From an uncultured Chloroflexia bacterium (GTDB taxonomy: Bacteria; Chloroflexota; Anaerolineae; Ardenticatenales; Ardenticatenaceae), in the NCBI GenBank assembly GCA_963845765.1, contig CAWJTI010000001.1:395107-419106 (forward strand): a stretch of 24,000 nucleotides of DNA. The letters run 5' to 3'. Position numbers and translations under genes: made by a program. Of the stretch, positions 2 through 24,000 are shown piece by piece (the first letter of the stretch is position 1; each line of letters starts with the position of its first letter). A model generated the notes under the pieces. That model was not told where the DNA came from. It searched no databases and saw only the letters and a list, made by a program, of their open reading frames with translations.

Positions 2-304
2 AGCTTCGAGACGACCCTGACCATGCGCTTCATCTTCCTGCCCTACGACCTGGTGAGCTACCTTGCGGGGCTGCTGCGCATTGACTATAAAGCCTTCATC
101 CTCGCAACGATCCTCGGCTCGCTGCCGGGCACCATCAGCTTCGTGCTGGCCGGTGCCTCGGTTCCGGTGGACAGCCTGCTGCAAAACAACTTCCGGCCCA
201 GCCTCAACCCCTGGGCGCTGGCCGCCTCCGTCCTGATCTTCGTCGTCAGCCTCGCCTTCTCGCGCTACCTGAAGGGACGAGCGACGACGGACGACGACCG
301 ATGA
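2..304 (+). CDS. TVP38/TMEM64 (DedA-like, SNARE-associated) membrane protein, C-terminal fragment; 5' end lies outside the window
   Basis: The frame is open from the window edge. The hydrophobic segment LPYDLVSYLAGLLRIDYKAFILATILGSLPGTISFVLAG is typical of this family. The stop TGA at 302-304 lies inside a heptamer array. Confidence 0.75.
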   Translation, partial: SFETTLTMRFIFLPYDLVSYLAGLLRIDYKAFILATILGSLPGTISFVLAGASVPVDSLLQNNFRPSLNPWALAASVLIFVVSLAFSRYLKGRATTDDDR

Positions 305-330
305 CCGACGACCGACGACCGATGACCGCC
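277..330. repeat. Degenerate heptamer tandem array, unit GACGACC/GATGACC (~7 units)
   Basis: Read directly: gacgagc gacgacg gacgacg accgatg accgacg accgacg accgatg accgcc. It encodes the last residues (TTDDDR) and the stop codon of the upstream CDS. Confidence 0.9.
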
Positions 331-403: not shown

Positions 404-449
404 GTCTGTAATCTGCAATCTGCAACCTGCCATCTGCAATCTGCAATCC
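404..449. repeat. Heptamer tandem array, unit ATCTGCA (~6.5 units)
   Basis: gtctgta atctgca atctgca acctgcc atctgca atctgca atccc, ending about 24 nt upstream of the halogenase ATG. Confidence 0.9.
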
Positions 450-2214: not shown

Positions 2215-3672
2215 ATGGCTGATAAAGAATACGACGCAATCGTGATCGGCGCGGGCTCCGGCGGCTTTACCGTCGCCATCGGGCTGACCAACTTTGGCAA
2301 GCGCGTGGCGGTCGTCGAGGCGCGTTGGGTGGGCGGGGATTGCACCAACGTCGGCTGCGTGCCCTCCAAAACCTTGCTGCACCAGGCAGAGTTGTACCAC
2401 GGTGAGGGCAGCACCGAGCCCGCCTTTGCCACGGTGCAGCGCAAGCGCAACGCATTGCGCGAGAAAGAAACCGAGGAGCTTCAGGCGATCCCGAACCTCG
2501 ATCTGATCTTCGGGCACGCCCGCTTTCTGGACCCCAGGCGGCTGGAGGTCGAGCTGGAAAATGGCGGCACGCGGGAAATTCGCGGCAAAAAGATAGTCAT
2601 CGCCACCGGCTCGCGCCCGCTCATGCTCAACATCGAGGGGCTGCCAGCGGAGCGCACCCTGACGAACGAGAGCGTCTTTGACCTGCCCGAAGCGCCCGCC
2701 CACCTGCTGATCGTCGGCTCCGGCCCGGTCGGGGTGGAGATGGCGACGGCGTTCGCGGCGCTGGGCAGCAAGGTCACCCTCGTCTCGCTGAGCGCGCGCG
2801 TGCTCTCCCACACCCCGCCCGAAGCGTCCGAGGCGCTGCACCGCGCGCTGACGGAGCGGGGCATTGACATCCACCTGAACGCGCGCGCCGACGCCTACGA
2901 CGAGGCGAGCCAGACCCTCACGATCAAGCGCGGCGACGAGCGCATCCCAATTCCGGGGGTGGATCAGGTGCTGATCGCGGCGGGGCGCACCCTCAACGTG
3001 GACTCGTTGGGGCTGGAGCGGGCAGGGGTGGATTTTGACCGCAAAAAGGGCATTCCCACCGACAGCTACGCGCAGACCAACGTGCCCCACATCTTCGCCA
3101 TCGGCGATGTGAACCCGACCTCGCACTACACCCACTCCGCCAACGCGCAGGGGCGACGGGCCACGCAGCGCATCGCGTTTCCCTTTTTGCCCGCGTGGAG
3201 CAAGGAGCCGCTGTACCCCAGCGCCATCTACAGCAACCCCGAGGTCGCCACGGTGGGCATGCTGCCGGACGAGATCGCGGAGCGCTACCACCCGCGCCTG
3301 ATCCGGCGCATCCGCGTGGAGATGAGCGCGCTGGATCGCGGCTACACCGACGGGGTGGAGCACGGCTTCGTCATGGTGGATGCGGTGCGCCTCACGGGGC
3401 GCATCCTGGGCGCGACGATCGTCGGACCGCACGCGGCGGACATGATCAGCCTCTTCACCCTCGGGATCACCGAGGGAATTTCCCTTTACAAGCTCTACGG
3501 GATAGTTTACCCCTACCCCAGCTACTCCGAGGGGATCAAAAAGGTGGCCGACGAGTTTATGCGCGCCACGCTGCCCAAGCTCCCAGGCGAGCTGTGGAGC
3601 TACCTGCGCTACCGCTGGGCCTCCCCCACCGGCAAGGGCGCAGAGCAATTTACCGAGATCAAGGTCGGATGA
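2215..3672 (+). CDS. Class-I pyridine nucleotide-disulfide oxidoreductase (dihydrolipoyl dehydrogenase / mercuric-reductase-like flavoprotein)
   Basis: N-terminal FAD fold (AIVIGAGSGG), redox-active CxxxxC (GGDCTNVGCVPSK) and a second dinucleotide fold (LLIVGSGPVGVE). The C-terminal dimerisation motif is VYPYPSYSEG, with Tyr in place of the Lpd/GR His, as in MerA-like proteins. There is no C-terminal Cys-Cys pair. An aaagga SD precedes the ATG. Confidence 0.9.
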   Translation: MADKEYDAIVIGAGSGGFTVAIGLTNFGKRVAVVEARWVGGDCTNVGCVPSKTLLHQAELYHGEGSTEPAFATVQRKRNALREKETEELQAIPNLDLIFGHARFLDPRRLEVELENGGTREIRGKKIVIATGSRPLMLNIEGLPAERTLTNESVFDLPEAPAHLLIVGSGPVGVEMATAFAALGSKVTLVSLSARVLSHTPPEASEALHRALTERGIDIHLNARADAYDEASQTLTIKRGDERIPIPGVDQVLIAAGRTLNVDSLGLERAGVDFDRKKGIPTDSYAQTNVPHIFAIGDVNPTSHYTHSANAQGRRATQRIAFPFLPAWSKEPLYPSAIYSNPEVATVGMLPDEIAERYHPRLIRRIRVEMSALDRGYTDGVEHGFVMVDAVRLTGRILGATIVGPHAADMISLFTLGITEGISLYKLYGIVYPYPSYSEGIKKVADEFMRATLPKLPGELWSYLRYRWASPTGKGAEQFTEIKVG

Positions 3673-3902
3673 GGACGGACGACGAAAGACGGAGAACGAA
3701 TAACCGCCAAGACGCCAAGAGCGCCAAGGCTTATCTCATTTTCTAGACAAGCCTTTTATATTTCAAGCACCGTAGATAAATGAGAACGGTGCGCTTTAAC
3801 CCTCATAAAATTTCCTTGGCGTCCTCCGTGCCCTTGGCGTCATGGCGGTTATCTATATCCGTTATTCGTCATCGGTCGTCGGTCGTCGGTCGTCGGTCGT
3901 CC
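3671..3902. repeat. Large imperfect inverted repeat with an AT-rich ~85-bp core
   Basis: Left arm 3671-3730: gaggacggacgacgaaagacggagaacgaataaccgccaagacgccaagagcgccaaggc. Right arm 3814-3902: ccttggcgtcctccgtgcccttggcgtcatggcggttat...cgttattcgtcatcggtcgtc(ggtcgtc)3c. The arms are reverse complements apart from indels. The outer right end is a perfect (GGTCGTC)4 array. Confidence 0.85.
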
Positions 3903-3972: not shown

Positions 3973-4521
3973 ATGTCTGTTCCAGAAATCAAGGCTCGGG
4001 TAAAGGGGCGCGTGTGGCAGGCGATCGCGCAGAGCGGGGTGGATTTGTCCGCAATCCCGCAGGAGGCGATGGACCGCCTGGTCAACACGGTGGCGGAGGG
4101 GGTGCTGGTCGAGGTGGACGATATGCTGGGCGAGGCGTCGGGCCAGCCCCGCTCGGTGGAAAGCCCCGCGCCGACGAGTGCCGAGGACGGGGAGGAGCGC
4201 GTGCTGTGGACGGGGCGGCCCTTCCTCTCGCTGAATGTGACCTACCAGATCACCTCCGAGCGGGTCCGCATCGTGCGCGGGATGATGGGCAAAGAGCGCG
4301 AGGACATCGAGTTGATCCGCGTTCAGGATATTGACCAGACGCAGTCAGCGGGGGAGCGGCTCCTCAACCTGGGCGACATCCACCTGCGCAGCCACGATCC
4401 GAGCAGCCCGAGCCTGACGCTGCACAACGTGGCCGACCCGCAGCAGGTCCACGAGATTTTGCGACGCGCCGTGCTCAGCGCGCGCAAAAAGTATAACTTG
4501 AACTATCGCGAGATGATGTAG
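3973..4521 (+). CDS. Bacterial PH-domain (bPH_2 / YdbT-like, DUF304) protein
   Basis: The C-terminal half, VLWTGRPFLSLNVTYQITSERVRIVRGMMGKEREDIELIRVQDIDQTQSAGERLLNLGDIHL, matches the bPH_2 pattern. An aaggag SD lies 7 nt upstream of the ATG. Confidence 0.7.
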   Translation: MSVPEIKARVKGRVWQAIAQSGVDLSAIPQEAMDRLVNTVAEGVLVEVDDMLGEASGQPRSVESPAPTSAEDGEERVLWTGRPFLSLNVTYQITSERVRIVRGMMGKEREDIELIRVQDIDQTQSAGERLLNLGDIHLRSHDPSSPSLTLHNVADPQQVHEILRRAVLSARKKYNLNYREMM

Positions 4522-4562
4522 GGTGGGGCGTAGTGAATGGTGAATCGTGAATGGTGAATGGG
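4521..4562. repeat. Heptamer tandem array, unit GTGAATG (4 units), preceded by GGGTGGGGCGTA
   Basis: gggtggggcgt agtgaat ggtgaat cgtgaat ggtgaat ggggttgg, starting directly after the stop codon of the PH-domain gene. The 16-mer at 4525-4540 recurs as a reverse complement at 13069-13084. Confidence 0.9.
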
Positions 4563-6625: not shown

Positions 6626-8440
6626 TTAGCGCACCAGCCGCCCCTGCCCGCGCCCCTCGATATAGTCGAGCGACTGGTGGCGGAAGTAGGTGTTGTACAG
6701 TTCGGCGTAGTGGCCACCCCGCGCCATCAACTCATCGTGGCTGCCCTCCTCGATGATCTGCCCCTGTTGCAGCACCAGGATGCGGTCCGCCGCCTTGACG
6801 GTGGACAGGCGGTGCGCGATCACGATCGAGGTGCGATCCTTGAAGATGGTTTCCAGCGCCTGCTGAATCTGCGCCTCGGTGAAGGGGTCAATGGAGGCGG
6901 TCGCCTCGTCGAGGATGAAGATGGCGGGGTTTTGCGCCAGCACGCGCGCCAGCACCACCAGTTGCCGCTGCCCCAGGCTGAGCCGCGCGCCGCGCTCGCC
7001 CACGTCGGTTTCCAACCCGTTCGGGAGGTTGTCGGTCCAGTCACTGCCGAGCGCCCGCGCCACCTGCGCCACCTCCGCGTCGCTCAGCTCGGGGCGCGCG
7101 TAGCGGATGTTGTCGGCCACCGTGCCCTCGAACAAAAAGGGCATCTGGCTGACGACCCCCAACTCGCGGCGGTACGCTTCCAGGTCAACGGTGCGGATAT
7201 CCTGACCGTCCACCAGCACGCGCCCCTGCTGGAACTCGTAAAAGCGCGTGACCAGCTTCGCGATGCTGGATTTCCCCGCGCCGGTGTGCCCGACCAGCGC
7301 GACGCTCTCGCCCGGACGGATGTGCAGGTCGAAGTTGCGCAGCACCCAGTCGTCGCTCTTGTACGCGAAGCAGACGTCCTCGAAGCGGATATCGCCCTCC
7401 AGATCACCCACCGGCTGCTGCTCGCTCTGCTGCACCACCGGCTTGGCGTCCATCAGGGCAAAGACACGCTCGGTAGCGCTTAGCCCCGCCTGAAATTGGC
7501 TCCAAAAAGAGGCAAGGTTGATCATCGGGAACCAGAAGCGGTCCACGCTGCTGATGAACAGAAACCAGTCGCCGGGGGAGACCGACCCGTCCACCACCTG
7601 GAGGCCGCCAAAATAAAGGATCACCGCCGTGCCGATGCCGCTGAACACGTTGAGCGTTGGGAAGAGGCTGGAGAGCACCATCCCCTTGCGGACGTTCGTG
7701 TCGTAGCTCGTCTCGTTGACCCCCGTGAACTCGTCGTAGATGCCCGCCTCGCGCCGGAAGTTTTTAGCGACCCCGATCCCCGTCACCGCTTCCTGGATGG
7801 CGACGTTGACCTCGGCCACGGCGCGCTGGCTGCGCTGCGTCACCGTCCGCGCGATGCCGCGAAAGCCCCATGCCACCCCAAAGGCCGCAGGCGACAGCAT
7901 GAGGACCAGCAGCGCCAGGTGCCACTCGACGGCGAAGAGCACAGCGAGCAGCAGCGCGGCGAGCAGCAGCTGGCTGCCCACGTCCACTACCAGCACGGCC
8001 ACGCGCCCGAACTCGTCGGTGTCGCTCGTGACGCGGCTGACGATGCGCCCCGACTGATACTCATCGTAGAAGCTCATGTCGTGGGTCATCGTCGCCTGAA
8101 AGGCATCGCGCCGCATCGCCATCACCACATCGCCGATCAGCCGCGAGGCAAGCCGCCGCTGGACCCAGTTGGTCACCCAGACCAGGATGCCAGTGACGAG
8201 CACCGCGCCGATCAACAGCGCGATCAGCCTATCGTTGCCGCTCGCCACCATCTTGTCCACCCCCTGCGCGACCAGCAGTGGCGCAGCCGCCCCGAAGATC
8301 GAGCGCAGAAAAAGCATCACCATGATGATGACGAGCCTGCCCTTCCACGGCTGAAAATAGCCCCAGATGCGCCCTATCAACTCGCGGTCGCTGTAGTCGC
8401 GGTCGAACCCCTCGGCGGTTAGTCCCTGGATGATGCTCAT
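6626..8440 (-). CDS. ABC exporter, fused permease/ATPase subunit (ABCB/MdlB-like), consensus-site partner of a heterodimer
   Basis: Six-TM N-terminal domain, Walker A GHTGAGKSS, signature LSLGQRQ, Walker B FILDEATA (D-E intact). The ATG at 8440 (MSIIQGL...) is preferred. An ATG at 8485 with a GGAG 5 nt upstream would add a heptamer-array-encoded extension ([15 protein letters not shown]). The track start at 8497 is TTG. Confidence 0.9.
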   Translation of the reverse strand: MSIIQGLTAEGFDRDYSDRELIGRIWGYFQPWKGRLVIIMVMLFLRSIFGAAAPLLVAQGVDKMVASGNDRLIALLIGAVLVTGILVWVTNWVQRRLASRLIGDVVMAMRRDAFQATMTHDMSFYDEYQSGRIVSRVTSDTDEFGRVAVLVVDVGSQLLLAALLLAVLFAVEWHLALLVLMLSPAAFGVAWGFRGIARTVTQRSQRAVAEVNVAIQEAVTGIGVAKNFRREAGIYDEFTGVNETSYDTNVRKGMVLSSLFPTLNVFSGIGTAVILYFGGLQVVDGSVSPGDWFLFISSVDRFWFPMINLASFWSQFQAGLSATERVFALMDAKPVVQQSEQQPVGDLEGDIRFEDVCFAYKSDDWVLRNFDLHIRPGESVALVGHTGAGKSSIAKLVTRFYEFQQGRVLVDGQDIRTVDLEAYRRELGVVSQMPFLFEGTVADNIRYARPELSDAEVAQVARALGSDWTDNLPNGLETDVGERGARLSLGQRQLVVLARVLAQNPAIFILDEATASIDPFTEAQIQQALETIFKDRTSIVIAHRLSTVKAADRILVLQQGQIIEEGSHDELMARGGHYAELYNTYFRHQSLDYIEGRGQGRLVR

Positions 8441-8443
8441 GGG

Positions 8444-8480
8444 TGGACGACCGACGACCGACGACCGACGACCGACAACG
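8444..8480. repeat. Heptamer tandem array (GACGACC)4, left arm of an inverted pair
   Basis: tggacgaccgacgaccgacgaccgacgaccgacaacgg. This is nearly identical to the reverse complement of 9067-9103. Positions 8444-8475 are identical to the reverse complement of 3872-3903. Confidence 0.95.
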
Positions 8481-8515
8481 GACATGCTACTCCGCAAGGT
8501 CTGCTCATTAGCATA

Positions 8516-8947
8516 TTAGCTCTCATCCGAAACAAATTCATCATTATTGTTCTCATAGAACGTGAATTCTTCACGAATCCAGCGTTGGTTAGGCACAATT
8601 GCTTGGCGAAATGCCTGTAGTTTGGCCGCTAGTCTATCAGCATCTTGGTATGCCTGCCTAAGCAAGGTTGTGTCTTTAAGGTACTGGCGACGGTTGATAA
8701 TATGTTGACACGCTACGGTTTCTACAAGCGAACGAAGGGCCAGCCCTATAAAACGCGCCTGCTCCGCATCCGTTTGCCCGGTTGAGCCCTCAGCAATGTT
8801 GAGAGCCACCGACGTTGCCGCTCGCCGCAACTGTGAGGCCAAATTATAAGTTTCGCTTGGAGGCAACTTTTCAGCAATCGCATAGACCAGATCGATATAC
8901 TCCAATGCTAATGTCCAAACCTCTAATTTTTCAAACTTGAAGGGCAT
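8516..8947 (-). CDS. Four-helix-bundle protein (23S rRNA intervening-sequence protein family, PF05635/TIGR02436; same fold family as the DGR accessory protein Avd)
   Basis: N-terminus FEKLEVWTLALEYIDLVYAIAEKLPPSETYNLASQLRRAATSVALNIAEGS is the family signature. A strong SD (ggaggtga) lies upstream. The gene is visibly much more AT-rich than both neighbours. Confidence 0.85.
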   Translation of the reverse strand: MPFKFEKLEVWTLALEYIDLVYAIAEKLPPSETYNLASQLRRAATSVALNIAEGSTGQTDAEQARFIGLALRSLVETVACQHIINRRQYLKDTTLLRQAYQDADRLAAKLQAFRQAIVPNQRWIREEFTFYENNNDEFVSDES

Positions 8948-9066
8948 CCCTCACCTCCACGTTCATCTTTTTAGATCTATCCGTGTCGGTCGTCGCACCC
9001 AGAGGGTACCCGACGGTCGTCCGTCGTCGCGCCCAGAGGTGGGTTCCCGCCTTGCGGGTACTGATT

Positions 9067-9103
9067 CCGTCGTCGGTCGTCGGTCGTCGGTCGTCGGTCG
9101 TCA
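9067..9103. repeat. Heptamer tandem array (GGTCGTC)4-5, right arm of the inverted pair. More degenerate copies lie at ~8984-9040.
   Basis: ccgtcgtcggtcgtcggtcgtcggtcgtcggtcgtca. The last three bases are the reverse-strand TGA stop of the upstream ABC gene. Confidence 0.95.
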
Positions 9104-10879
9104 AATTCGTGCAAAAATGTCGCGGTAGGCCCCCGATTCCGCGAGCAGCTGCTCGTGGGTGCCGTGGGCGACAACGCGCCCCTTTTTGAGGACGACGATC
9201 TTGTCGGCGTGGCGAATTTGGGAGAGGCGGTGGGTGATGAGGAGGGTGGTGCGCCCCTCGGCAGCCGCCTCGATGGCGCGCTGGATGCGATCCTCGGTGG
9301 CGCTGTCGATGGCGCTGGTCGAGTCGTCGAGGATGAGGACGGCGGGGTGAGAGAGGAAAGCGCGGGCCAGGGCCAGGCGCTGGCGCTGCCCACCGGAGAG
9401 CATCACGCCGCGCTCGCCAATCTCGGTGTCGAACCCCTCGGGGAAGGAGGAGATGAAGTTGTCGGCCTGCGCCGCGCGCGCCGCCGCGCGCACCTCCTCG
9501 TCGGTGGCGTCGGGGCGGCCAAAGCGAATATTCTCGCGGACCGAGCGGCTGAACAAAAAGATGTCCTGCTCGATGATCGAGATTTGGCGGCGCAGCGCCT
9601 CAAGGTCCCACTCGCGCACGTCCACCCCATCCACCAGGATGCGCCCCGCATCCACATCGTAGGTGCGGTTGATTAGCTTGGCGATGCTGCTCTTGCCCGC
9701 GCCGGTCTGCCCCACGATAGCAAGCGTTTGCCCAGGCTCCACCTCAAAAGAGATGTTAGACAGGGTGTCACCCTCCGGTCGCCGCCCGTCCGGCCCCTCC
9801 GACTTGTAGCGGAAGCTCACGTTCTCGAAGCGGATGTGGCCGCGCATCGGCTCGGCGATCCCGCCCTCGTTGCGGTCCACCGCGTGCTCCTCCTGCATCA
9901 GCTCCAAAATGCGCCGCGCGCTGGAGACGCCGGAGGAAACCTGCGAGTAGGCGAGCAGCGAGACGAACACGGGAAACCCGTAAAGGGAGATGAGCCCCTG
10001 GTAGGCCACCACATCGCCGATGGAGATGCTACCCGCCTGAAACAGGACGATCGAGTGCCAGAGCGCCGTGCCCTGCGCGATGCCGAGGAGCAGCAGCGGC
10101 AGGTAGCGCGCCTCCAACTCCCCCTGCTCCACAAAGGCGTCGCGCACCTTGCGCGTGAAACGCTCGAAGCGGCTGATCTCGCGCTCTTCCTGCGCCGCCC
10201 CCTTGACCGTCTCGATCCCCTCGATGGCCTGGGTGAGCGCCGCGTTCATCTGCCCGAAACTTTCGCGCACCTCCGCCGTGACGGGGTTTAGCTGGCCGAT
10301 GTAGTGGTAGAGCGCCCACACGTAGCTGACCATGAAGGCGATCGGGGTGGCGACAAGCGCGGGGTGGTAGGAGGGGGCGACCAGCAGCGGCATGACGAGG
10401 AACATGCCGGAGCCGATGACAAGGTTCAGTCCTGGGGCGAGCATCAGCGCGAGCTCGTGCACGTCGTTGGTCGCGCGGGCCATCATCTCGCCGCTGGGGT
10501 GCGAGTCGTGGAAGCGCATGCTCTTGCCCAACAGCGAGCCGTACAACTCATCGCGCGCGTCGCGCTCCAGCCGCTGCCCCAGCATCTCGCTGCCAAAGTT
10601 GCGCACCCACTGGAGCCCGCTGCGCACCATCTGGCTGACCAGCAGCCAGATCGTCGCCCAGAGCAGCACGCTCACCTCCGCTGGCTGGCGGACGATGGCA
10701 TCGAAGGCTTGCCCCGTGAAGATCGGGATGGCCGCCGCAAGGGCCGCGTTCCCGAAGGCCCCCGCCAGCACAACCAAGATGATCCACTTGTTCCGAATCA
10801 CGTGCGCCCAGATCCAACGCACCGGCCCGCGCCGCTCCGTGCGCCACGGGTGCGACACCACAAATTCACTCGTCGCCAT
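9101..10879 (-). CDS. ABC exporter, fused permease/ATPase subunit, degenerate-site partner of a heterodimer
   Basis: TM domain, Walker [10 protein letters not shown], signature LSGGQRQ. Walker B is LILDDSTS, with the catalytic Glu replaced by Asp, as in the degenerate half of asymmetric heterodimeric exporters. The ATG at 10879 (MATSEF...) is preferred over the TTG at 10936. Confidence 0.88.
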
Positions 10880-14521: not shown

Positions 14522-16126
14522 ATGAACAAGAAACGCGATAGTGTAACCCCTTTACCCCACAAACTGCTGTTCCACCTTTTGCTGGTAGTCACCCTGCTGG
14601 GCCAGTTTATACCCCTTGGCTGGCTGGGTACCGTCCACGCTGACCCCCCCGTAAGCAAAGTCCTGCCCCAACTCCAGCGCGACGCGACGGCACGTCGCAA
14701 TGAGACGTTCCGCGTGATTATCACGCGGGTAAACGGCAATCGTGGGGCGGACAACGCCGCGCAGGCGCAGGGCCAGAAGGTTCGGGATCTCCCCTTTGTA
14801 GATGGCTTCGTGCTCGAACTACCGGGACGAGCGATCGAGGCGCTCGGGCGAAATCCCCATATCAAGCTCATCACGCCGGATGCTGAAGTATTTTCTACCG
14901 ATGTGGAGGAGGCAAACCTTGGCACCCTCTTCAACCAGACGATTAACTCGGCAGGCTTGTGGTCGCCCGCTAGCGGGTCGAGCCTGACGGGTGCGGGGAT
15001 TGGCGTGGCGGTCCTCGATACTGGCATCACCGAGCGCGCCGATTGGAGGGGAGCCAACGGACAGAGCCGCGTCGTTGCCAACATGCTCTTCAACCCGCGG
15101 CTGGCCAGGACCGATGACGGCCACGGGCATGGCACGCACGTTGCCGGGATCATCGCGGGTAACTCCTGGTACCAGACATCCGCCGCCCTTCAGGGGAAAT
15201 ACATCGGTGTCGCACCCGAGGCAAATCTAATCAACGTGCGCGTCTCGGACGAACGGGGCAGGTCCCTCATCTCCGATGTCGTGTCAGCAATCGACTGGGT
15301 AGTCGCCAACCGCCAGACCTACAACATTCGCGTGATGAATTTGTCGCTCATTTCCAGTGTGCCAGAAAGCTACAAGACGAGCGTACTGGCGGCGGCGGTC
15401 GAGCGCGCCTGGTTCAACGGAATCTTCGTGGTCGTCGCGGCGGGCAATGCTGGCCCCAACACGATGATATACCCGCCCGCCAACGATCCGTTTGTGATCA
15501 CCGTTGGGGCGAGCGACCAGATGGGAACTACAAGTTGGGCCGATGACACCATTGCCCCCTGGTCCAGCTATGGGATCACCCAGGATGGCTTCATCAAACC
15601 CGACGTGGTGGCCCCGGGGCGCTATATCCCCTCGCCGCTCGCTTCCACCGCTAGTACCCTGGGCGTAACCTATCCGACCCGTATTGTGGACGGAAGCTAC
15701 ATCTGGATGTCCGGCACCTCGATGGCCGCACCGGTCGTCTCGGGTCTAGCTGCCCTGGCCTTCCAGGCCCACCCCGAGTGGACCCCCGATCAGGTGAAGT
15801 GGCTCCTGAAACAGACAGCCAACCCGCTGCCGAATGCCCAGCTCGTGCCGCAATCGCAGGGAGCTGGGTCGGTTAACGCAGCAGCGGTTACCGGTTACGC
15901 GCTGACCCCCGGCTTTGCCAATCAGGGTCTTATCATCAACAATTACCTGGTCCCCAGCACGGGCGGCATCGTGTATGACAGTGCCTCGTGGAGCACCGCC
16001 AGTTGGAGCACCGCCAGTTGGAGCACCGCCAGTTGGAGCACCGCTAGCTGGAGCACCGCCAGTTGGAGCACCGCCAACGAGAGCACGGCGAGCGCCAATG
16101 TTGCCCAAGCCGTCGAAGTTGAGTAA
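14522..16126 (+). CDS. Secreted S8 (subtilisin-like) serine peptidase with I9 propeptide and a C-terminal (SWSTA)n repeat tail
   Basis: Signal peptide (…LGWLGTVHA), I9-like propeptide, catalytic Asp (AVLDTGI), His (HGHGTHVAGIIAG), oxyanion Asn (AAGNAGPN) and Ser (SGTSMAAPVVSG). An aggag SD lies 8 nt upstream. Confidence 0.93.
   Translation: MNKKRDSVTPLPHKLLFHLLLVVTLLGQFIPLGWLGTVHADPPVSKVLPQLQRDATARRNETFRVIITRVNGNRGADNAAQAQGQKVRDLPFVDGFVLELPGRAIEALGRNPHIKLITPDAEVFSTDVEEANLGTLFNQTINSAGLWSPASGSSLTGAGIGVAVLDTGITERADWRGANGQSRVVANMLFNPRLARTDDGHGHGTHVAGIIAGNSWYQTSAALQGKYIGVAPEANLINVRVSDERGRSLISDVVSAIDWVVANRQTYNIRVMNLSLISSVPESYKTSVLAAAVERAWFNGIFVVVAAGNAGPNTMIYPPANDPFVITVGASDQMGTTSWADDTIAPWSSYGITQDGFIKPDVVAPGRYIPSPLASTASTLGVTYPTRIVDGSYIWMSGTSMAAPVVSGLAALAFQAHPEWTPDQVKWLLKQTANPLPNAQLVPQSQGAGSVNAAAVTGYALTPGFANQGLIINNYLVPSTGGIVYDSASWSTASWSTASWSTASWSTASWSTASWSTANESTASANVAQAVEVE
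15989..16078 (+). repeat. Six near-perfect 15-bp tandem repeats (TGGAGCACCGCCAGT) encoding (WSTAS)6
   Basis: Read directly. Copies 4 and 6 differ by 2 nt each and the others are identical. Confidence 0.95.
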
Positions 16127-19345: not shown

Positions 19346-20053
19346 ATGAGCGAGAAAATTCCCCTATCGCTGCTGGCCTTTGATCGCGCGGCGAGGACGC
19401 GCGCGGCCAATGAGTTGTTGCAGGCGCACTACGGACCCCCGGAGCCAGCGCCACGCCCGCAGCCGTCGGATGATCTGCTGGCGCGGCTGATCCGCGTCAT
19501 CATCGCGCAGAACACCTCCAGGGCGAACCAGGCGCAAGCCCTGGAGCGCCTGGGCCGCCGCTTCCCCGATCCGGCGCTGATCGCCGAGGCCCCACTGGTC
19601 GACGTGATCGACGCGATCTATGTAGCGGGGCTGGCAAAGTCCAAAGCGCCGCGCTTGCAGGCCATGATCGCGCAGCTGCTGGAAACGACCGATGGCACAC
19701 TGGAGCTAGACTTTTTGCGGGCCATGCCGGTGGACGAGGCGCGTGCCTTCTTGATGGCGCTCCCTGGCATCGGGCCGCTGTCGGCAAGCCTGGTGCTGCT
19801 CTTCGGCCTGAACCGCCCGGTGCTGCCGGTCAACACCGGCCTGCACCGCGTGGCCCTGCGCGTCGGGATGATCCCCCCCGACACCTCCGCCGAGCGCGCG
19901 CACGAGCTGCTGCAAGCCATGCTGGACGATGACGATTTGTACGCGTTCCACATCAACGCGGTGCGCCACGCGCGCCTGCTCTGCACCGCGAGCCGCCCCA
20001 AATGTGAAAGCTGTCCCCTCGCCGCCATCTGCGCCTGGGTCAACGGCGGGTAG
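19346..20053 (+). CDS. Endonuclease III-like HhH-GPD base-excision DNA glycosylase with a 4Fe-4S cluster
   Basis: HhH motif LPGIGPLSASLVLLFGL, PVNTGLHRV, and a C-terminal C-x6-C-x2-C-x5-C (CTASRPKCESCPLAAIC). Confidence 0.85.
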   Translation: MSEKIPLSLLAFDRAARTRAANELLQAHYGPPEPAPRPQPSDDLLARLIRVIIAQNTSRANQAQALERLGRRFPDPALIAEAPLVDVIDAIYVAGLAKSKAPRLQAMIAQLLETTDGTLELDFLRAMPVDEARAFLMALPGIGPLSASLVLLFGLNRPVLPVNTGLHRVALRVGMIPPDTSAERAHELLQAMLDDDDLYAFHINAVRHARLLCTASRPKCESCPLAAICAWVNGG

Positions 20054-20202
20054 GGATTTCGGATTTCGGATTTCGGATTTCGGATTGGGTTGGAGTGGAA
20101 CCGCGCTTTGCGAAGGGCAGTTCCTCCATTTTCGGATCGCTCAAACGCATCGCCACTCGCTCTGGCTTTGCAGCGAATCCGAAATCCGAAATCCGAAATC
20201 CT
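20053..20202. repeat. Inverted heptamer arrays, (GGATTTC)5 at 20053-20087 and (GAAATCC)4 at 20174-20202, bracketing an ~86-nt spacer between convergent genes
   Basis: Read directly. The left array starts at the last base of the upstream TAG stop. The right array ends within the stop codon of the - strand HD gene. Confidence 0.95.
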
Positions 20203-21020
20203 ACTCTTCCAACACCGTGACGAGGGTATCGGGCTTGAGGTAGGAGAGCAGGTCGCGGATCTGGGGGTCGCGGATGCGGTGGAGTTGCTTCCACAGGGCG
20301 CGGTCAGTCTGGTACCAATCCTGCTCCTGGATGTACCCTGCCTCCACGGCGAGGCGCATCGCCTGGGCGAGCACCCAGTACAGCGCCACCTCGTGGGGCG
20401 AGGACCACATTTTTTCATCCATCTGGAGGTAGGTGTCGGCCATCCAGCGTGCCGCCGCCACATCGTCCATCACGATCAGGCCATCGTGCGCGGTCAGGTG
20501 GGCGAGCATCCACCGCACCTGCGCGGCACTGCCCAGCCCCGCCGGTTGGATGGTGCGCAAAAAATAGTCCACGCGATCGGCGCAGAGCAGGGGCTGAGGC
20601 TGCTCCAGCAGGGTAAACTCGCCGCTTTCCGCCTCCATCTCGCGCCACGCATAGCCGAAGCGCGCGAGAATAGCCGGGAAGGGTGGAGCGTTCGACGATG
20701 GTGTGCCACATGCGCTCGTGGTAGCTGACATCGTGCTCGGCGTAAACGAAATCGGCGACGTGGGAAAACGCGGTGTGGGAAATGTCGTGCAGCAGCCCCG
20801 CGATCTGCTCCTTGAGCGGTGCCCCGAGGCGGCGCAGCAGCAGCATCACCCCCACCGAATGCTCGTAGCGCGAAAAGTCGGGCGAGATGCCGAGCAGCCC
20901 GCTGATGCCCGACTGGGAAACATGGCGTAGCCGCTGCATCGCGGGCGAGGCAATGATCGCCTCCAGCACCGGCTCCTCGATAGACACAACACCATACACT
21001 TTGTCGTGGATCGTAATCAT
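20201..21020 (-). pseudogene. HD-domain phosphohydrolase (COG1078 / SAMHD1-like HD superfamily) interrupted by a frameshift at ~20672-20697
   Basis: The N-terminal part (ATG 21020, aaggag SD) reads MITIHDKVYGVVSIEEPVLEAIIASPAMQRLRHVSQSG...GLLHDISHTAFSH...HERMWHTIVERS, then turns to Arg/Gly junk. The protein-like continuation PPFPAILARFGYAWREME...CADRVDYFLRT...LEE is in another frame (ORF 20201..20731). Confidence 0.8.
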
Positions 21021-23777: not shown

Positions 23778-24000
23778 GCAACTACGACAGTTGTCCCTGC
23801 TAGCACTGTTACTCATGCTTGTTCTGCTGCTTGCCGCCTGCGGCGGTAGCAGCGAGAGCGAGACGACCACCGCGCCGGAAGCAACGGCCGAGGAGGTCAT
23901 GGAGGAGCCTGCGGCCACCGAGGAGGTCATGGAGGAGCCCGCTGCCACCGAGGAAGTGATGGAGGAGCCCGCTGCCGAGGAGACGAGCGGCGACAGCGTG
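23778..24000 (+). CDS. Lipoprotein, N-terminal fragment; probably a solute-binding protein of a LacI-controlled sugar ABC transporter. It continues past the window end.
   Basis: It is absent from the ORF track because it has no stop in the window. The ATG at 23778 follows a ggagga SD. MSKQLRQLSLLALLLMLVLLLAAC is a signal peptide with a lipobox Cys. An acidic repeat linker follows. The function is inferred from context only. Confidence 0.7.
23884..23973 (+). repeat. Three 30-bp tandem repeats encoding (A)TEEVMEEPAA
   Basis: gccaccgaggaggtcatggaggagcccgct occurs three times with a few substitutions. Confidence 0.85.

What the first reader, a model, noticed from the sequence alone, without database searches (positions are those of the whole stretch)
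8441..9103. Low-GC four-helix-bundle (23S-IVS/Avd family) gene inside a 36-nt inverted repeat, inserted between the two halves of an ABC exporter operon
The two half-transporter genes of a heterodimeric exporter are normally adjacent or overlapping. Here one NBD is consensus (D-E) and one is degenerate (D-D). They are separated by 660 bp that begins right after the stop of the upstream gene and ends 3 nt before the ATG of the downstream gene. The insert is bounded by tggacgaccgacgaccgacgaccgacgaccgacaacgg (8444-8480) and its near-exact reverse complement (9067-9103). It carries one visibly AT-rich gene with its own strong SD. That gene belongs to a protein family named for ORFs found inside 23S rRNA intervening sequences, which are themselves bounded by inverted repeats and excised at the stem by RNase III. 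The geometry here mimics an IVS, but within an mRNA. This suggests a mobile IVS-like cassette whose flanking stem could be processed to split the operon transcript. No reverse transcriptase or template/variable repeat, as a DGR would have, is present in the window.
Basis: partly seen in the sequence, partly recalled or inferred. Interest (0 to 1): 0.7.

Follow-up and report, generated by a model that had tools for sequence, protein, structure and literature searches.

The report
Heptamer-flanked gene cassette inside an operon
A small foreign gene of unknown function, wrapped in a long hairpin built from 7-base repeats, sits exactly between the two genes of a transporter operon; its relatives in at least three bacterial phyla are packaged the same way, which links two long-unexplained features: 7-base repeat hairpins and the 'rRNA intervening-sequence' protein.

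Summary
On the minus strand, a 657-bp cassette (8446-9102) lies between the stop codon of a degenerate-site ABC half-transporter gene and the start codon of its consensus-site partner. It carries a PF05635/TIGR02436 four-helix-bundle (4HB) gene with its own Shine-Dalgarno sequence. Two 37-nt arms that are 97% complementary bound it.

The closest orthologous ABC pairs (83%, 78% and 74% identity) lack the gene. In the closest one, stop and start are 8 nt apart. The gene's GC3 is 0.47, against 0.89 in the flanking genes. It is therefore a recent insertion.

The arms are not a unique 36-mer. They are arrays of the heptamer GACGACC. In 143 related loci from Chloroflexota, Bacteroidota and metagenomes, most 4HB genes are flanked by inverted GACSANN heptamer arrays. 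In 75 of 93 cases they sit between two co-directional host genes, such as ilvB|ilvN and pth|mfd. Three cyanobacterial plasmid copies have the same layout with a different unit.

At shared sites the protein is under strong purifying selection (dN/dS 0.04-0.10). Gene-less hairpins of the same units also occur.

The cassette resembles an ORF-bearing 23S rRNA intervening sequence placed in mRNA. RNase III processing and protein binding to the repeats are inferred, not shown.

The parts
9101..10879 (-). Upstream ABC half-transporter gene (ABC1; TMD+NBD, degenerate Walker B D-D). Its stop TGA (9103-9101) overlaps the first heptamer unit.
   Evidence: Translation. PF00664+PF00005. 100% identical to P0001, 592 aa.
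9066..9102 (-). 5' arm: (GACGACC)n heptamer array, read in the sense of the genes.
   Evidence: Pairs with 8446-8482 in the minimum-free-energy fold.
8948..9065 (-). 118-nt leader, GC 0.62. It holds degenerate GAC units (9012-9028, 8984-8995), a small CCCGC/GCGGG hairpin, and the Shine-Dalgarno GGAGG at 8958-8954.
   Evidence: No promoter-like site lies between the arm and the ATG.
8516..8947 (-). Four-helix-bundle protein gene (143 aa; PF05635 / TIGR02436). Conserved stripe R-x3-S-x3-N-x2-E in ...QLRRAATSVALNIAEG...; acidic C-terminal tail.
   Evidence: Homologous to the pentameric XCC0516, PDB 2GSC (E=7e-14). GC3 0.47.
8483..8515 (-). 33-nt trailer between the stop codon and the 3' arm.
8446..8482 (-). 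3' arm: (GGTCGTC)n array, the reverse complement of the 5' arm. No U-tract follows it.
8441..8445 (-). CACCC spacer. It is what remains of the ancestral stop-start spacer (compare gcaccATG in the empty site of L081).
6626..8440 (-). Downstream ABC half-transporter gene (ABC2; consensus Walker B D-E).
   Evidence: N-terminus MSIIQGLTAEGFDRDYSDRE aligns with the L081 ABC2 start MSIVQGLTAEKYDRDYSDRE.
3663..3901 (.). Gene-less ('solo') hairpin built from GAC-type heptamers (same GGTCGTC units at 3868-3901). It has a nested second inverted repeat and an AT-rich ~90-nt loop. It starts right after the stop of gene 2215..3672.
   Evidence: RNA fold z=-5.7. No remnant of a 4HB gene.
275..330 (+). Unpaired (GACGACC)n array. 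It overlaps the 3' end of the upstream ORF, whose reading frame ends at a TGA inside the array.

Best explanation
The feature is a horizontally acquired, promoter-less cassette: a 5' array of GACGACC heptamers, a leader with a Shine-Dalgarno sequence, a four-helix-bundle (PF05635) gene, and a 3' array of the complementary heptamers. It is inserted into the stop-start spacer, only a few nucleotides long, of a heterodimeric ABC exporter operon.

It belongs to a widespread family of cassettes with this design, which I did not find described. Members live inside host operons and are transcribed by read-through.

In the operon transcript the two arrays pair into a 37-bp stem. The base of the stem brings the upstream stop codon and the downstream start codon back within a few nucleotides of each other.

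I infer that the stem makes the insertion tolerable in one or both of two ways. RNase III may cut the long duplex, releasing the 4HB mRNA as it releases the rRNA IVS. Alternatively, a ribosome terminating on the upstream gene may open the stem base and unmask the downstream start, preserving translational coupling.

The protein is functional and probably pentameric. I infer, with lower confidence, that it recognises the periodic GAC units.

Shown: the insertion, the architecture, its conservation, the operon habit, purifying selection, and the predicted stem. Inferred: RNA processing, coupling, and protein-repeat recognition.
For: Insertion:
- The closest ABC1 orthologs (83%, 78%, 74% identity) have ABC2 directly downstream. 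The gaps are 8 nt, 53 nt, and ~150 nt holding an unrelated heptamer hairpin. None has a 4HB gene.
- Synteny of the neighbouring genes is kept.
- GC3 is 0.47 against 0.86-0.89 in host genes. The deficit of -0.17 compares with a family mean of -0.08.

Family architecture:
- Of 79 relatives with full flanks, 57 have phased (GACN4)3 runs upstream and 60 have (GTCN4)3 runs downstream. The background is 0.2 per kb.
- Arrays called independently by TRF: 52 of 64 upstream arrays contain GAC and 49 of 61 downstream arrays contain GTC. The unit logo is G.99 A.95 C.96 S A.82 N N.
- Replicated in 63 metagenome loci: 61 upstream, 57 downstream, 55 both.
- Cyanobacterial plasmid copies also carry inverted heptamer arrays, with other units.

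Operon habit:
- In 51 of 65 cassettes, the stop of a co-directional ORF of 80 codons or more lies within 40 nt upstream to 12 nt downstream of the left boundary, in most cases within 8 nt.
- In 57 of 65, a co-directional ORF starts just after the right boundary; the most common position puts the ATG's first base 9 nt past the last GTC.
- Both neighbours are co-directional in 75 of 93.
- Hosts include ALS large|small subunit, pth|mfd, glyS|dnaG and aminopeptidase P|CDP-alcohol phosphatidyltransferase, and cmr2|cmr3 (PMC3936711).

Stem:
- The 37-bp terminal helix appears in the MFE and centroid folds, z=-9.
- A cassette's own arms pair better than arms taken from different loci (19 vs 11).
- Arm lengths correlate (rho 0.44, p=4e-4).
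- There is no internal promoter-like site upstream of the gene and no terminator at the arms.

Protein: dN/dS is 0.04-0.10 at syntenic sites. The homolog 2GSC has five chains in its PDB entry and is described as a homopentamer in PMC4990558.

Precedent: the Coxiella IVS (428-444 nt, 28-bp stem, S23p ORF, low GC) is excised by RNase III (PMC4990558). Hairpins of 7-bp repeats between hupS and hupL have been proposed to stabilise transcripts or couple translation (PMC2670836).
Against: - No transcript data exist, so RNase III cleavage and coupling are untested.
- Mismatches in the arms show no excess of G.U over A.C (67 vs 63, p=0.79). Selection on sense-RNA pairing would be expected to produce such an excess.
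- In old, syntenic copies the arms keep the GACSANN character, but their units are not mirrored one by one. What is conserved may therefore be the motif rather than the helix.
- No target-site duplication is visible and no recombinase lies nearby, so the way the cassette arrived is unknown.
- The protein is a singleton at 90% identity. No relatives were found in viral contigs or phage records.
- The arms and leader have host-like GC while the gene does not. This could mean the gene entered a hairpin that was already there.
- The related loci were chosen by similarity to this protein (41-77% identity). The generalisation covers this subfamily, not all of PF05635.
Confidence: 0.6

Rival explanations
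1. The arrays are primarily binding sites for the 4HB pentamer. The protein would read GAC triplets spaced 7 nt apart on single-stranded RNA (or DNA), as HutP reads (UAG-N4)3 and TRAP reads spaced GAG/UAG triplets. Binding to the 5' array would compete with stem formation and autoregulate translation or processing. Complementarity of the two arms would be secondary.
For: - GAC is nearly invariant (0.95-0.99) while the last two positions vary freely.
- Old copies keep the motif but not unit-by-unit mirror symmetry.
- There is no G.U excess.
- The family forms pentamers (2GSC has five chains in its PDB entry, and is described as a homopentamer in PMC4990558). The related Avd is a positively charged pentameric barrel that works with RNA and a reverse transcriptase (PMC6182149).
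- Arrays typically have 4-9 units.
- In many Chloroflexota loci the 5' array runs up to the ATG and contains SD-like AGGA/GGAG (28/39, against 3/26 in the mostly Bacteroidota set).
Against: - There is no binding data.
- Cyanobacterial copies use other units (GTCAGGA, GGAGATA), so GAC is not universal.
- The window protein has a net acidic charge by my own count of its residues in the translation, owing to its C-terminal tail.
- The inverted arrangement and the correlated arm lengths are not explained by binding alone.
Confidence: 0.25
2. It is a DNA-level foldback or MITE-like element. The heptamer arrays are terminal inverted repeats used by a recombinase encoded elsewhere, or by hairpin-prone replication, and the RNA stem is incidental. 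The gene-carrying and gene-less hairpins are autonomous-like and derivative forms of one repeat family.
For: - Mismatch spectrum is symmetric, as expected for neutral decay of a DNA palindrome.
- Gene-less GAC hairpins occur in the window (3663-3901) and in related loci. 43 of 88 non-adjacent heptamer arrays are of GAC/GTC type.
- Unit flavours are more alike within a locus than between loci (0.47 vs 0.36, p=4e-5).
- The site is polymorphic for presence and absence.
Against: - No target-site duplication, and no transposase in the window.
- No near-identical copies.
- The within-locus flavour similarity is confounded by genome GC content.
- The strong bias to co-directional, intercistronic sites (75/93) and purifying selection on the gene point to an expressed, selected cargo.
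Confidence: 0.2
3. A generic heptamer hairpin of the STRR type, common in this genome's intergenic regions, was already present at the ABC junction. A foreign 4HB gene was later captured into its loop by recombination between arrays, so the arms did not arrive with the gene.
For: - The arms and the 118-nt leader are host-like in GC (0.62-0.71) while the gene has GC3 0.47.
- The same GACGACC units occur twice more within 9 kb.
- A 74% ortholog has an unrelated heptamer hairpin at exactly this junction.
- Other heptamer hairpins abut stop codons in the window (20054-20201).
Against: - 4HB relatives in lower-GC genomes already carry GACGACC-type arms (L007, L009), so the arms could have come with the gene.
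- The near-universal association of arms and gene across phyla is simpler if they travel together.
Confidence: 0.2
4. The gene is ancestral to the operon and was precisely lost in the relatives examined.
For: Only three ortholog lineages were examined and their branching order relative to the window is unknown. Long palindromes are prone to deletion.
Against: - Codon composition has not shifted toward the host's (GC3 0.47 vs 0.89).
- The arms are near-perfect.
- The same cassette type sits in many unrelated operons.
- The 8-nt empty spacer retains caccATG, as seen at the right edge of the insert.
Confidence: 0.05
5. It is the accessory (Avd) gene of a diversity-generating retroelement, or a remnant of one.
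For: It belongs to the same protein superfamily as Avd (PF05635; PMC10053308; PMC6182149).
Against: No reverse transcriptase domain was found in any large ORF of the 24-kb window. No direct repeat resembling a template/variable pair turned up near the cassette or in a search of the window with the cassette sequence. The immediate neighbours are the ABC genes.
Confidence: 0.02

Closest known systems
ORF-bearing 23S rRNA intervening sequences (Coxiella burnetii, Leptospira; S23p/PF05635 ORF)
   Same: A few hundred nt long. Terminal complementary sequences form a long stem of roughly 28-37 bp. The loop carries a PF05635 gene. GC is below the host's. Acquisition is horizontal. The insert is closed off from a host RNA whose two flanks must keep working (PMC4990558).
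   Different: The host RNA here is an operon mRNA, not rRNA helix 25 or 45. The stem is built from tandem heptamers. The gene has its own SD, and at shared sites its relatives are under strong purifying selection, whereas the Coxiella ORF is decaying. RNase III excision is unproven here.
Heptanucleotide tandem repeats and STRR hairpins of cyanobacteria, and GGGAATC repeats of Xanthomonas
   Same: Tandem 7-nt units in intergenic or intercistronic regions, often as inverted pairs, close to the stop codon of the upstream gene. One example lies between the two subunit genes hupS and hupL. Proposed roles are transcript stability or translational coupling (PMC2670836; PMC4692102).
   Different: Those reports describe repeats without a gene in the loop and make no link to PF05635 proteins. 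Here a specific unit class (GACSANN) is tied to a specific gene family in Chloroflexota and Bacteroidota.
Avd of diversity-generating retroelements
   Same: Homologous four-helix-bundle fold, pentameric assembly, works with nucleic acid (PMC6182149).
   Different: No reverse transcriptase and no template/variable repeats. The context is intercistronic in housekeeping or transport operons.
REP/REPIN elements and their RAYT gene
   Same: A gene flanked by inverted copies of a short repeat that is also dispersed, without the gene, as hairpin-forming doublets in intergenic regions (from my own knowledge of REPIN-RAYT systems; not tested here).
   Different: A RAYT is a Y1 HUH transposase, whereas the 4HB protein has no known catalytic motif. 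The repeats here are tandem heptamer arrays, not single palindromes.
23S_rRNA_IVP genes reported as CRISPR-associated
   Same: The same protein family was found inside cas operons, for example between cmr3 and cmr2 (PMC3936711; PMC10910872). I see the same in Picosynechococcus.
   Different: My data suggest this reflects a general habit of landing between co-directional operon genes. It may also reflect repeat arrays that resemble CRISPRs. A CRISPR-specific role is not needed to explain it.

Membership tests
PF05635 / TIGR02436 four-helix-bundle (23S rRNA IVS protein) family | Profile HMM score above the curated cut-off | tested here: met
   PF05635: 89.8 bits against a cut-off of 33.8. TIGR02436: 89.4 bits against 24.
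PF05635 / TIGR02436 four-helix-bundle (23S rRNA IVS protein) family | Conserved motif GxxRxxxSxxxNxxE (PMC3936711) | tested here: met
   The protein has R-x3-S-x3-N-x2-E in QLRRAATSVALNIAEG. The leading G is not present.
PF05635 / TIGR02436 four-helix-bundle (23S rRNA IVS protein) family | Homology to a solved pentameric four-helix-bundle structure | tested here: met
   2GSC (XCC0516, 5 chains), E=7e-14 over residues 5-116. The oligomeric state of this particular protein was not tested.
23S rRNA intervening sequence (IVS) | Located within a 23S rRNA gene (helix 25 or 45) | tested here: not met
   It is flanked by two ABC transporter genes. No Rfam hit in 8300-9300.
23S rRNA intervening sequence (IVS) | Bounded by complementary termini that form a long stem | tested here: met
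   A 37-bp stem appears in the MFE and centroid folds, z=-9.
23S rRNA intervening sequence (IVS) | Excised from the precursor by RNase III | not testable with these tools
   This needs transcript end-mapping or an in vitro cleavage assay.
Diversity-generating retroelement (Avd accessory gene) | Adjacent reverse transcriptase and a template/variable repeat pair | tested here: not met
   No RT domain in the window's ORFs. No TR/VR-like direct repeat near the cassette or matching the cassette elsewhere in the window.
Heptanucleotide SSR / STRR-type hairpin | Tandem 7-nt units in an intergenic region, present as an inverted pair able to form a hairpin | tested here: met
   Period-7 arrays of 4.4-4.9 copies on each side, which pair in the fold.
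Transposon / MITE / foldback element | Target-site duplication and a cognate transposase | tested here: not met
   The flanks ATTT|GAC... and ...GTC|CACCC show no duplication. No transposase is present in the window.
Transposon / MITE / foldback element | Multiple near-identical copies in the genome | tested here: inconclusive
   The protein is a singleton 90% cluster. The rest of the 517-kb contig and the genome could not be read.
REPIN-RAYT system | Flanked gene encodes a Y1/HUH transposase | tested here: not met
   The only family hits are PF05635 and TIGR02436.
Known anti-phage defence or phage gene families | Match to PADLOC or PHROGs profiles | tested here: not met
   No hits. No relatives in viral contigs or phage records.

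The most novel reading that the evidence does not exclude
The PF05635 four-helix-bundle pentamer is the trans-acting partner of heptanucleotide repeat arrays. It would recognise the periodic units, and it would create, maintain or spread heptamer hairpins of the STRR type, in a protein-repeat partnership analogous to RAYT-REPIN but with a different biochemistry. Under this reading, the ORF-bearing rRNA intervening sequences, the 'CRISPR-associated' IVP genes and the operon-embedded cassettes are all the same self-insulating element: an insert that survives inside essential transcripts because its own hairpin closes it off at the RNA level. This would give a function both to a protein family and to a repeat class that have been unexplained since about 1990.
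Probability: 0.15. Interest if true: 0.9.

Novelty: new variant of a known kind. Interest (0 to 1): 0.72.

Why it matters
Two orphan features may share one explanation. The first is the PF05635 '23S rRNA IVS protein' family, which is abundant, has a solved structure, and has no known function outside DGRs. The second is the tandem heptanucleotide repeats and hairpins known since the STRR reports in cyanobacteria and Xanthomonas. This locus and about 140 relatives show the two physically coupled in one conserved architecture.

The design also shows how a bacterial operon can tolerate a 650-nt insert between tightly coupled subunit genes. Examples include the ABC heterodimer here, acetolactate synthase large and small subunits, and cmr2|cmr3. 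The insert's hairpin restores the adjacency of the stop and start codons.

Reports that this protein family is 'CRISPR-associated' may simply reflect its habit of inserting into operons.

Testable predictions follow directly: RNase III cleavage of the stem, translational coupling that depends on the stem, and binding of the pentamer to (GACSANN)n. Culturable carriers were identified for such tests: Phnomibacter, Larkinella, Dyadobacter, Nostoc punctiforme and Picosynechococcus PCC 7003.

Tried and rejected
- Exact-protein look-ups for the 4HB protein and for ABC1 (P0001) returned no contig, so the rest of the 517-kb source contig could not be read.
- Rfam gave no family in 8300-9300.
- PADLOC and PHROGs gave no hit. 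The viral contig scan and phage records held no relatives.
- A search for a degraded 4HB gene in the loop of the gene-less hairpin at 3663-3901 found none.
- The G.U versus A.C mismatch asymmetry test for RNA-level selection was null.
- The unit-order shuffle test for mirror symmetry of the arms was null (mean z 0.29, 3 of 61 with p<0.05). Its power is low for homogeneous arrays.
- I first read 'GAC array upstream, GTC array downstream' as strand polarity relative to the gene. I rejected this. An inverted pair reads GAC-first on both strands, so the pattern only defines the unit of the terminal repeat. The real orientation signal is that the gene is co-directional with both of its neighbours.
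- The within-locus similarity of unit flavours is real but confounded by genome GC. I do not use it as evidence for homogenisation by a trans-acting factor.
- I recalled from memory that the classical STRR1-3 heptamers contain GTC/GAC. I could not verify this because Vioque 1997 is not held, so it is not used.
- Literature searches for PF05635, TIGR02436, S23p, and heptamers with Chloroflexi found no description of heptamer-flanked 4HB cassettes.
Full report
WHAT IS THERE

All relevant genes lie on the minus strand. Reading 5' to 3' in the sense of the genes:
- An ABC half-transporter gene (10879..9101; PF00664+PF00005; Walker B region LILDDSTS, a degenerate D-D site) ends with TGA at 9103-9101.
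- The GA of that stop codon is also the start of the first unit of a (GACGACC)n array, 9102-9066.
- A 118-nt GC-rich leader follows. It holds a few degenerate GAC units and a GGAGG 6 nt before the ATG.
- Next comes a 143-codon gene (8947..8516), then a 33-nt trailer, then the complementary array (GGTCGTC)n at 8482-8446.
- After five bases (CACCC) comes the ATG (8440) of the second half-transporter gene, which has a consensus D-E site (FILDEATA).

The two arms are 37 nt long and 97% complementary. A 17-mer of the unit occurs 17 times in the window, against none expected from shuffles. The small gene matches PF05635 (E=1.6e-25) and TIGR02436 well above the curated cut-offs. It is homologous to XCC0516, a four-helix-bundle protein deposited with five chains (PDB 2GSC) and described as a homopentamer in PMC4990558. 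The spacer before the ATG is 5 nt, not 3.

IT IS AN INSERTION, AND A RECENT ONE

A search with ABC1 found the source protein itself (P0001, 100% identity, on a 517-kb contig that I could not retrieve) and orthologs at 83%, 78% and 74% identity. Their contigs keep the local synteny (HhH-GPD glycosylase, ABC1, ABC2, LysM/M23 peptidase, bPH_2) but have no 4HB gene (window genes).
- In the 83% ortholog, the stop and start are 8 nt apart (TAAaaagcaccATG). The 'caccATG' matches the 'cacccATG' at the right edge of the insert.
- The 78% ortholog has a plain 53-nt spacer.
- The 74% ortholog has a ~150-nt spacer holding a different heptamer hairpin, (ATGTGAG)n...(ATCTCGC)n, and no gene.

The cassette gene has GC3 0.47, against 0.86-0.89 for the three neighbouring genes. 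Across 82 related loci the 4HB gene is always somewhat below its flanks (mean -0.079). It also tracks host GC closely (r=0.94), so old copies drift toward host composition. The window's deficit of -0.171 is among the largest. I conclude that the gene arrived recently from a lower-GC donor. No target-site duplication is visible. No reverse transcriptase, transposase or integrase is encoded in the window.

THE ARMS ARE A FAMILY TRAIT, NOT A LOCAL ACCIDENT

I collected 80 loci from species-representative genomes that encode relatives of the protein (41-77% identity; L001-L044 mostly Chloroflexota, L045-L080 mostly Bacteroidota). I also collected 80 metagenome loci.
- Of 79 genes with full 200-nt flanks, 57 have at least three in-phase GAC-N4 units upstream and 60 have GTC-type units downstream. 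Only 10 and 8 have the opposite type. The background elsewhere in the loci is 0.2 per kb.
- Tandem Repeats Finder does not know the motif, yet it gives the same picture: 52 of 64 upstream-adjacent period-7 arrays contain GAC and 49 of 61 downstream-adjacent arrays contain GTC. The unit logo is G .99, A .95, C .96, G/C, A .82, N, N.
- The metagenome set replicates this: 61, 57 and 55 of 63 have the upstream array, the downstream array, and both.
- More distant cyanobacterial plasmid copies (36-44% identity) are also bracketed by inverted heptamer arrays. Their units differ and resemble a Shine-Dalgarno sequence: (GTCAGGA)n/(TCCTGAC)n in Nostoc punctiforme and Aulosira, (GGAGATA)n/(TATCTCC)n in Picosynechococcus.
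- In 50 kb of the Nostoc plasmid there are only a handful of heptamer arrays, and two of them flank the single 4HB gene.

A caution I had to correct in my own reading: an inverted pair reads 'GAC-first' on both strands. This polarity therefore defines the unit of the terminal repeat, not the orientation of the gene.

THE CASSETTES LIVE INSIDE OPERONS

I defined element boundaries by the outermost phased units.
- In 51 of 65 cassettes, the stop of a co-directional ORF of 80 codons or more lies between 40 nt upstream and 12 nt downstream of the left boundary, in most cases within 8 nt. The stop often shares bases with the first unit, as T|GAC or TA|GAC.
- In 57 of 65, a co-directional ORF starts just after the right boundary. 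Most commonly the first base of its ATG is 9 nt past the last GTC.
- Judged without strand bias, by the longest open frame on either strand, both neighbours are co-directional with the 4HB gene in 75 of 93 cassettes.

The host gene pairs, confirmed by Pfam, include:
- acetolactate synthase large|small subunit;
- peptidyl-tRNA hydrolase|Mfd-like;
- GlyS beta|DnaG;
- aminopeptidase P|CDP-alcohol phosphatidyltransferase, in a syntenic set spanning many Chitinophagaceae and other Bacteroidota.

In Picosynechococcus the gene lies between cas10/cmr2 and cmr3. This matches the Pleurocapsa example published as a 'CRISPR-associated' 23S_rRNA_IVP gene (PMC3936711; see also PMC10910872).

The window cassette has no promoter-like site between the arm and the ATG, and no terminator at the arms. 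The ABC operon case is thus typical of this subfamily.

THE PROTEIN IS UNDER SELECTION; THE ARMS TURN OVER

At syntenic sites the 4HB gene shows dN/dS of 0.04-0.10, even where synonymous sites are near saturation. In those old copies both arms remain clearly GACSANN arrays, but their units differ between genomes and are not mirrored one by one. A cassette's own arms still pair better than arms taken from different loci (mean best-stem score 19 vs 11). Arm lengths are also correlated (rho 0.44, p=4e-4).

Mismatches within the best stems show no excess of G.U over A.C (67 vs 63). I therefore have no sequence-level signature that pairing is selected in the sense RNA. What is most strictly conserved is the periodic motif.

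Gene-less hairpins of the same unit type occur in the window (3663-3901; fold z=-5.7) and in related loci. 43 of 88 non-adjacent arrays are of GAC/GTC type. Unit flavours are more alike within a locus than between loci, although genome GC confounds that comparison.

HOW IT MOST LIKELY WORKS

Shown:
- The cassette is transcribed only if the operon is.
- The predicted fold of the transcript closes the insert with a 37-bp helix (MFE and centroid, z=-9).
- The base of that helix places the ABC1 stop and the ABC2 start 5 nt plus one helix end apart. The ancestral spacing was 8 nt.

Inferred: this self-insulating geometry is what allows the insert to sit between tightly coupled genes. Two mechanisms are possible, and they are not exclusive.
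- RNase III may cleave the long duplex, as shown for the architecturally equivalent Coxiella IVS, which has a 28-bp stem (PMC4990558).
- A ribosome terminating on the upstream gene may open the first units of the 5' arm and free the region just before the downstream ATG, preserving translational coupling. Coupling and transcript stability were proposed long ago for the 7-bp-repeat hairpin between hupS and hupL (PMC2670836).

A third idea is that the pentamer reads the GAC units at 7-nt spacing, by analogy with HutP and TRAP (an analogy from my own knowledge). This would explain why the motif is conserved more strictly than the pairing. No binding data support it, and the cyanobacterial units differ.

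COMPARISON WITH WHAT IS KNOWN

The cassette works like an ORF-bearing rRNA intervening sequence, but it is not a member of that class, because it is not in rRNA. It is not a DGR. It fails the transposon criteria I could test. Its arms belong to the known class of heptanucleotide repeat hairpins (STRR-type; Xanthomonas GGGAATC inverted pairs, PMC4692102).

In the held literature I found no report that links such repeats to PF05635 genes, and none that describes the intercistronic habit. I rate it a new variant of a known kind.

LIMITS

- No transcript or biochemical data are available.
- The source genome beyond the window could not be read.
- The related loci were selected by similarity to this protein, so they represent a subfamily rather than all of PF05635.
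- How the cassette moves is unknown.

Noticed in passing
window 20054-20201: A hairpin of a different heptamer, (GGATTTC)n ... (GAAATCC)n, with about 90 nt between the arrays. It sits exactly between the TAG stop of the endonuclease III-like gene (19346..20053, +) and the TAG stop of a 176-aa minus-strand ORF (20201..20731). Each gene is followed immediately by the same repeat in its own sense.
   Followed up: partly
window 4533-4561: A (GTGAATG)n array between the bPH_2 gene (stop at 4521) and the next ORF. Every unit contains both TGA and ATG, so successive units offer a stop and a start in all three frames. The ATG at 4558 lies in the last unit.
   Followed up: no
window 405-448: A (TCTGCAA)n array of 6.3 units lies about 25 nt upstream of the ATG of the halogenase/FAD-like gene. 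It follows the (GACGACC)n array at 275-330 and a small T-tailed hairpin. Heptamer arrays of several unrelated units are dense in this genome.
   Followed up: no
L084/L085 5783-5930: The 74%-identity ortholog of the ABC operon carries an unrelated heptamer hairpin, (ATGTGAG)n ... (ATCTCGC)n, at the same ABC1|ABC2 junction and has no gene in it. This junction seems to attract heptamer hairpins independently.
   Followed up: partly
L047 and L048 3421-3530; L001, L003, L004, L006, L014 gene 3' ends: Arrays can be translated. In Phnomibacter (L048) the downstream array appears in frame as an N-terminal extension (SSSVVGGPSSVAGGPSSVVGG) of the phosphatidyltransferase ORF. In several Chloroflexota loci the sense-type array extends into the 3' end of the 4HB gene and encodes its tail.
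   Followed up: no
L166 (Picosynechococcus sp. PCC 7003 plasmid) 1451-1878: The 4HB gene lies between cas10/cmr2 and cmr3, with (GGAGATA)n/(TATCTCC)n arms. Published 'CRISPR association' of 23S_rRNA_IVP genes may be a by-product of their habit of inserting into operons, or of repeat arrays being picked up by CRISPR finders.
   Followed up: partly
loci L001-L080, 5' arms: SD-like motifs (GGAG/GAGG/AGGA) occur in the 5' arm in 28 of 39 cassettes of the mostly Chloroflexota set. The figure is 3 of 26 in the mostly Bacteroidota set, a phylum that, to my knowledge, makes little use of Shine-Dalgarno pairing. The matching 3' arms then resemble the anti-SD sequence. Base composition confounds this comparison.
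   Followed up: partly
window 15989-16093 and 23888-23976: Tandem repeats with periods that are multiples of three: a 15/45-nt unit (TGGAGCACCGCCAGT) inside the subtilase (S8) gene, and a 30-nt unit near the end of the window. They are unrelated to the heptamer arrays.
   Followed up: no
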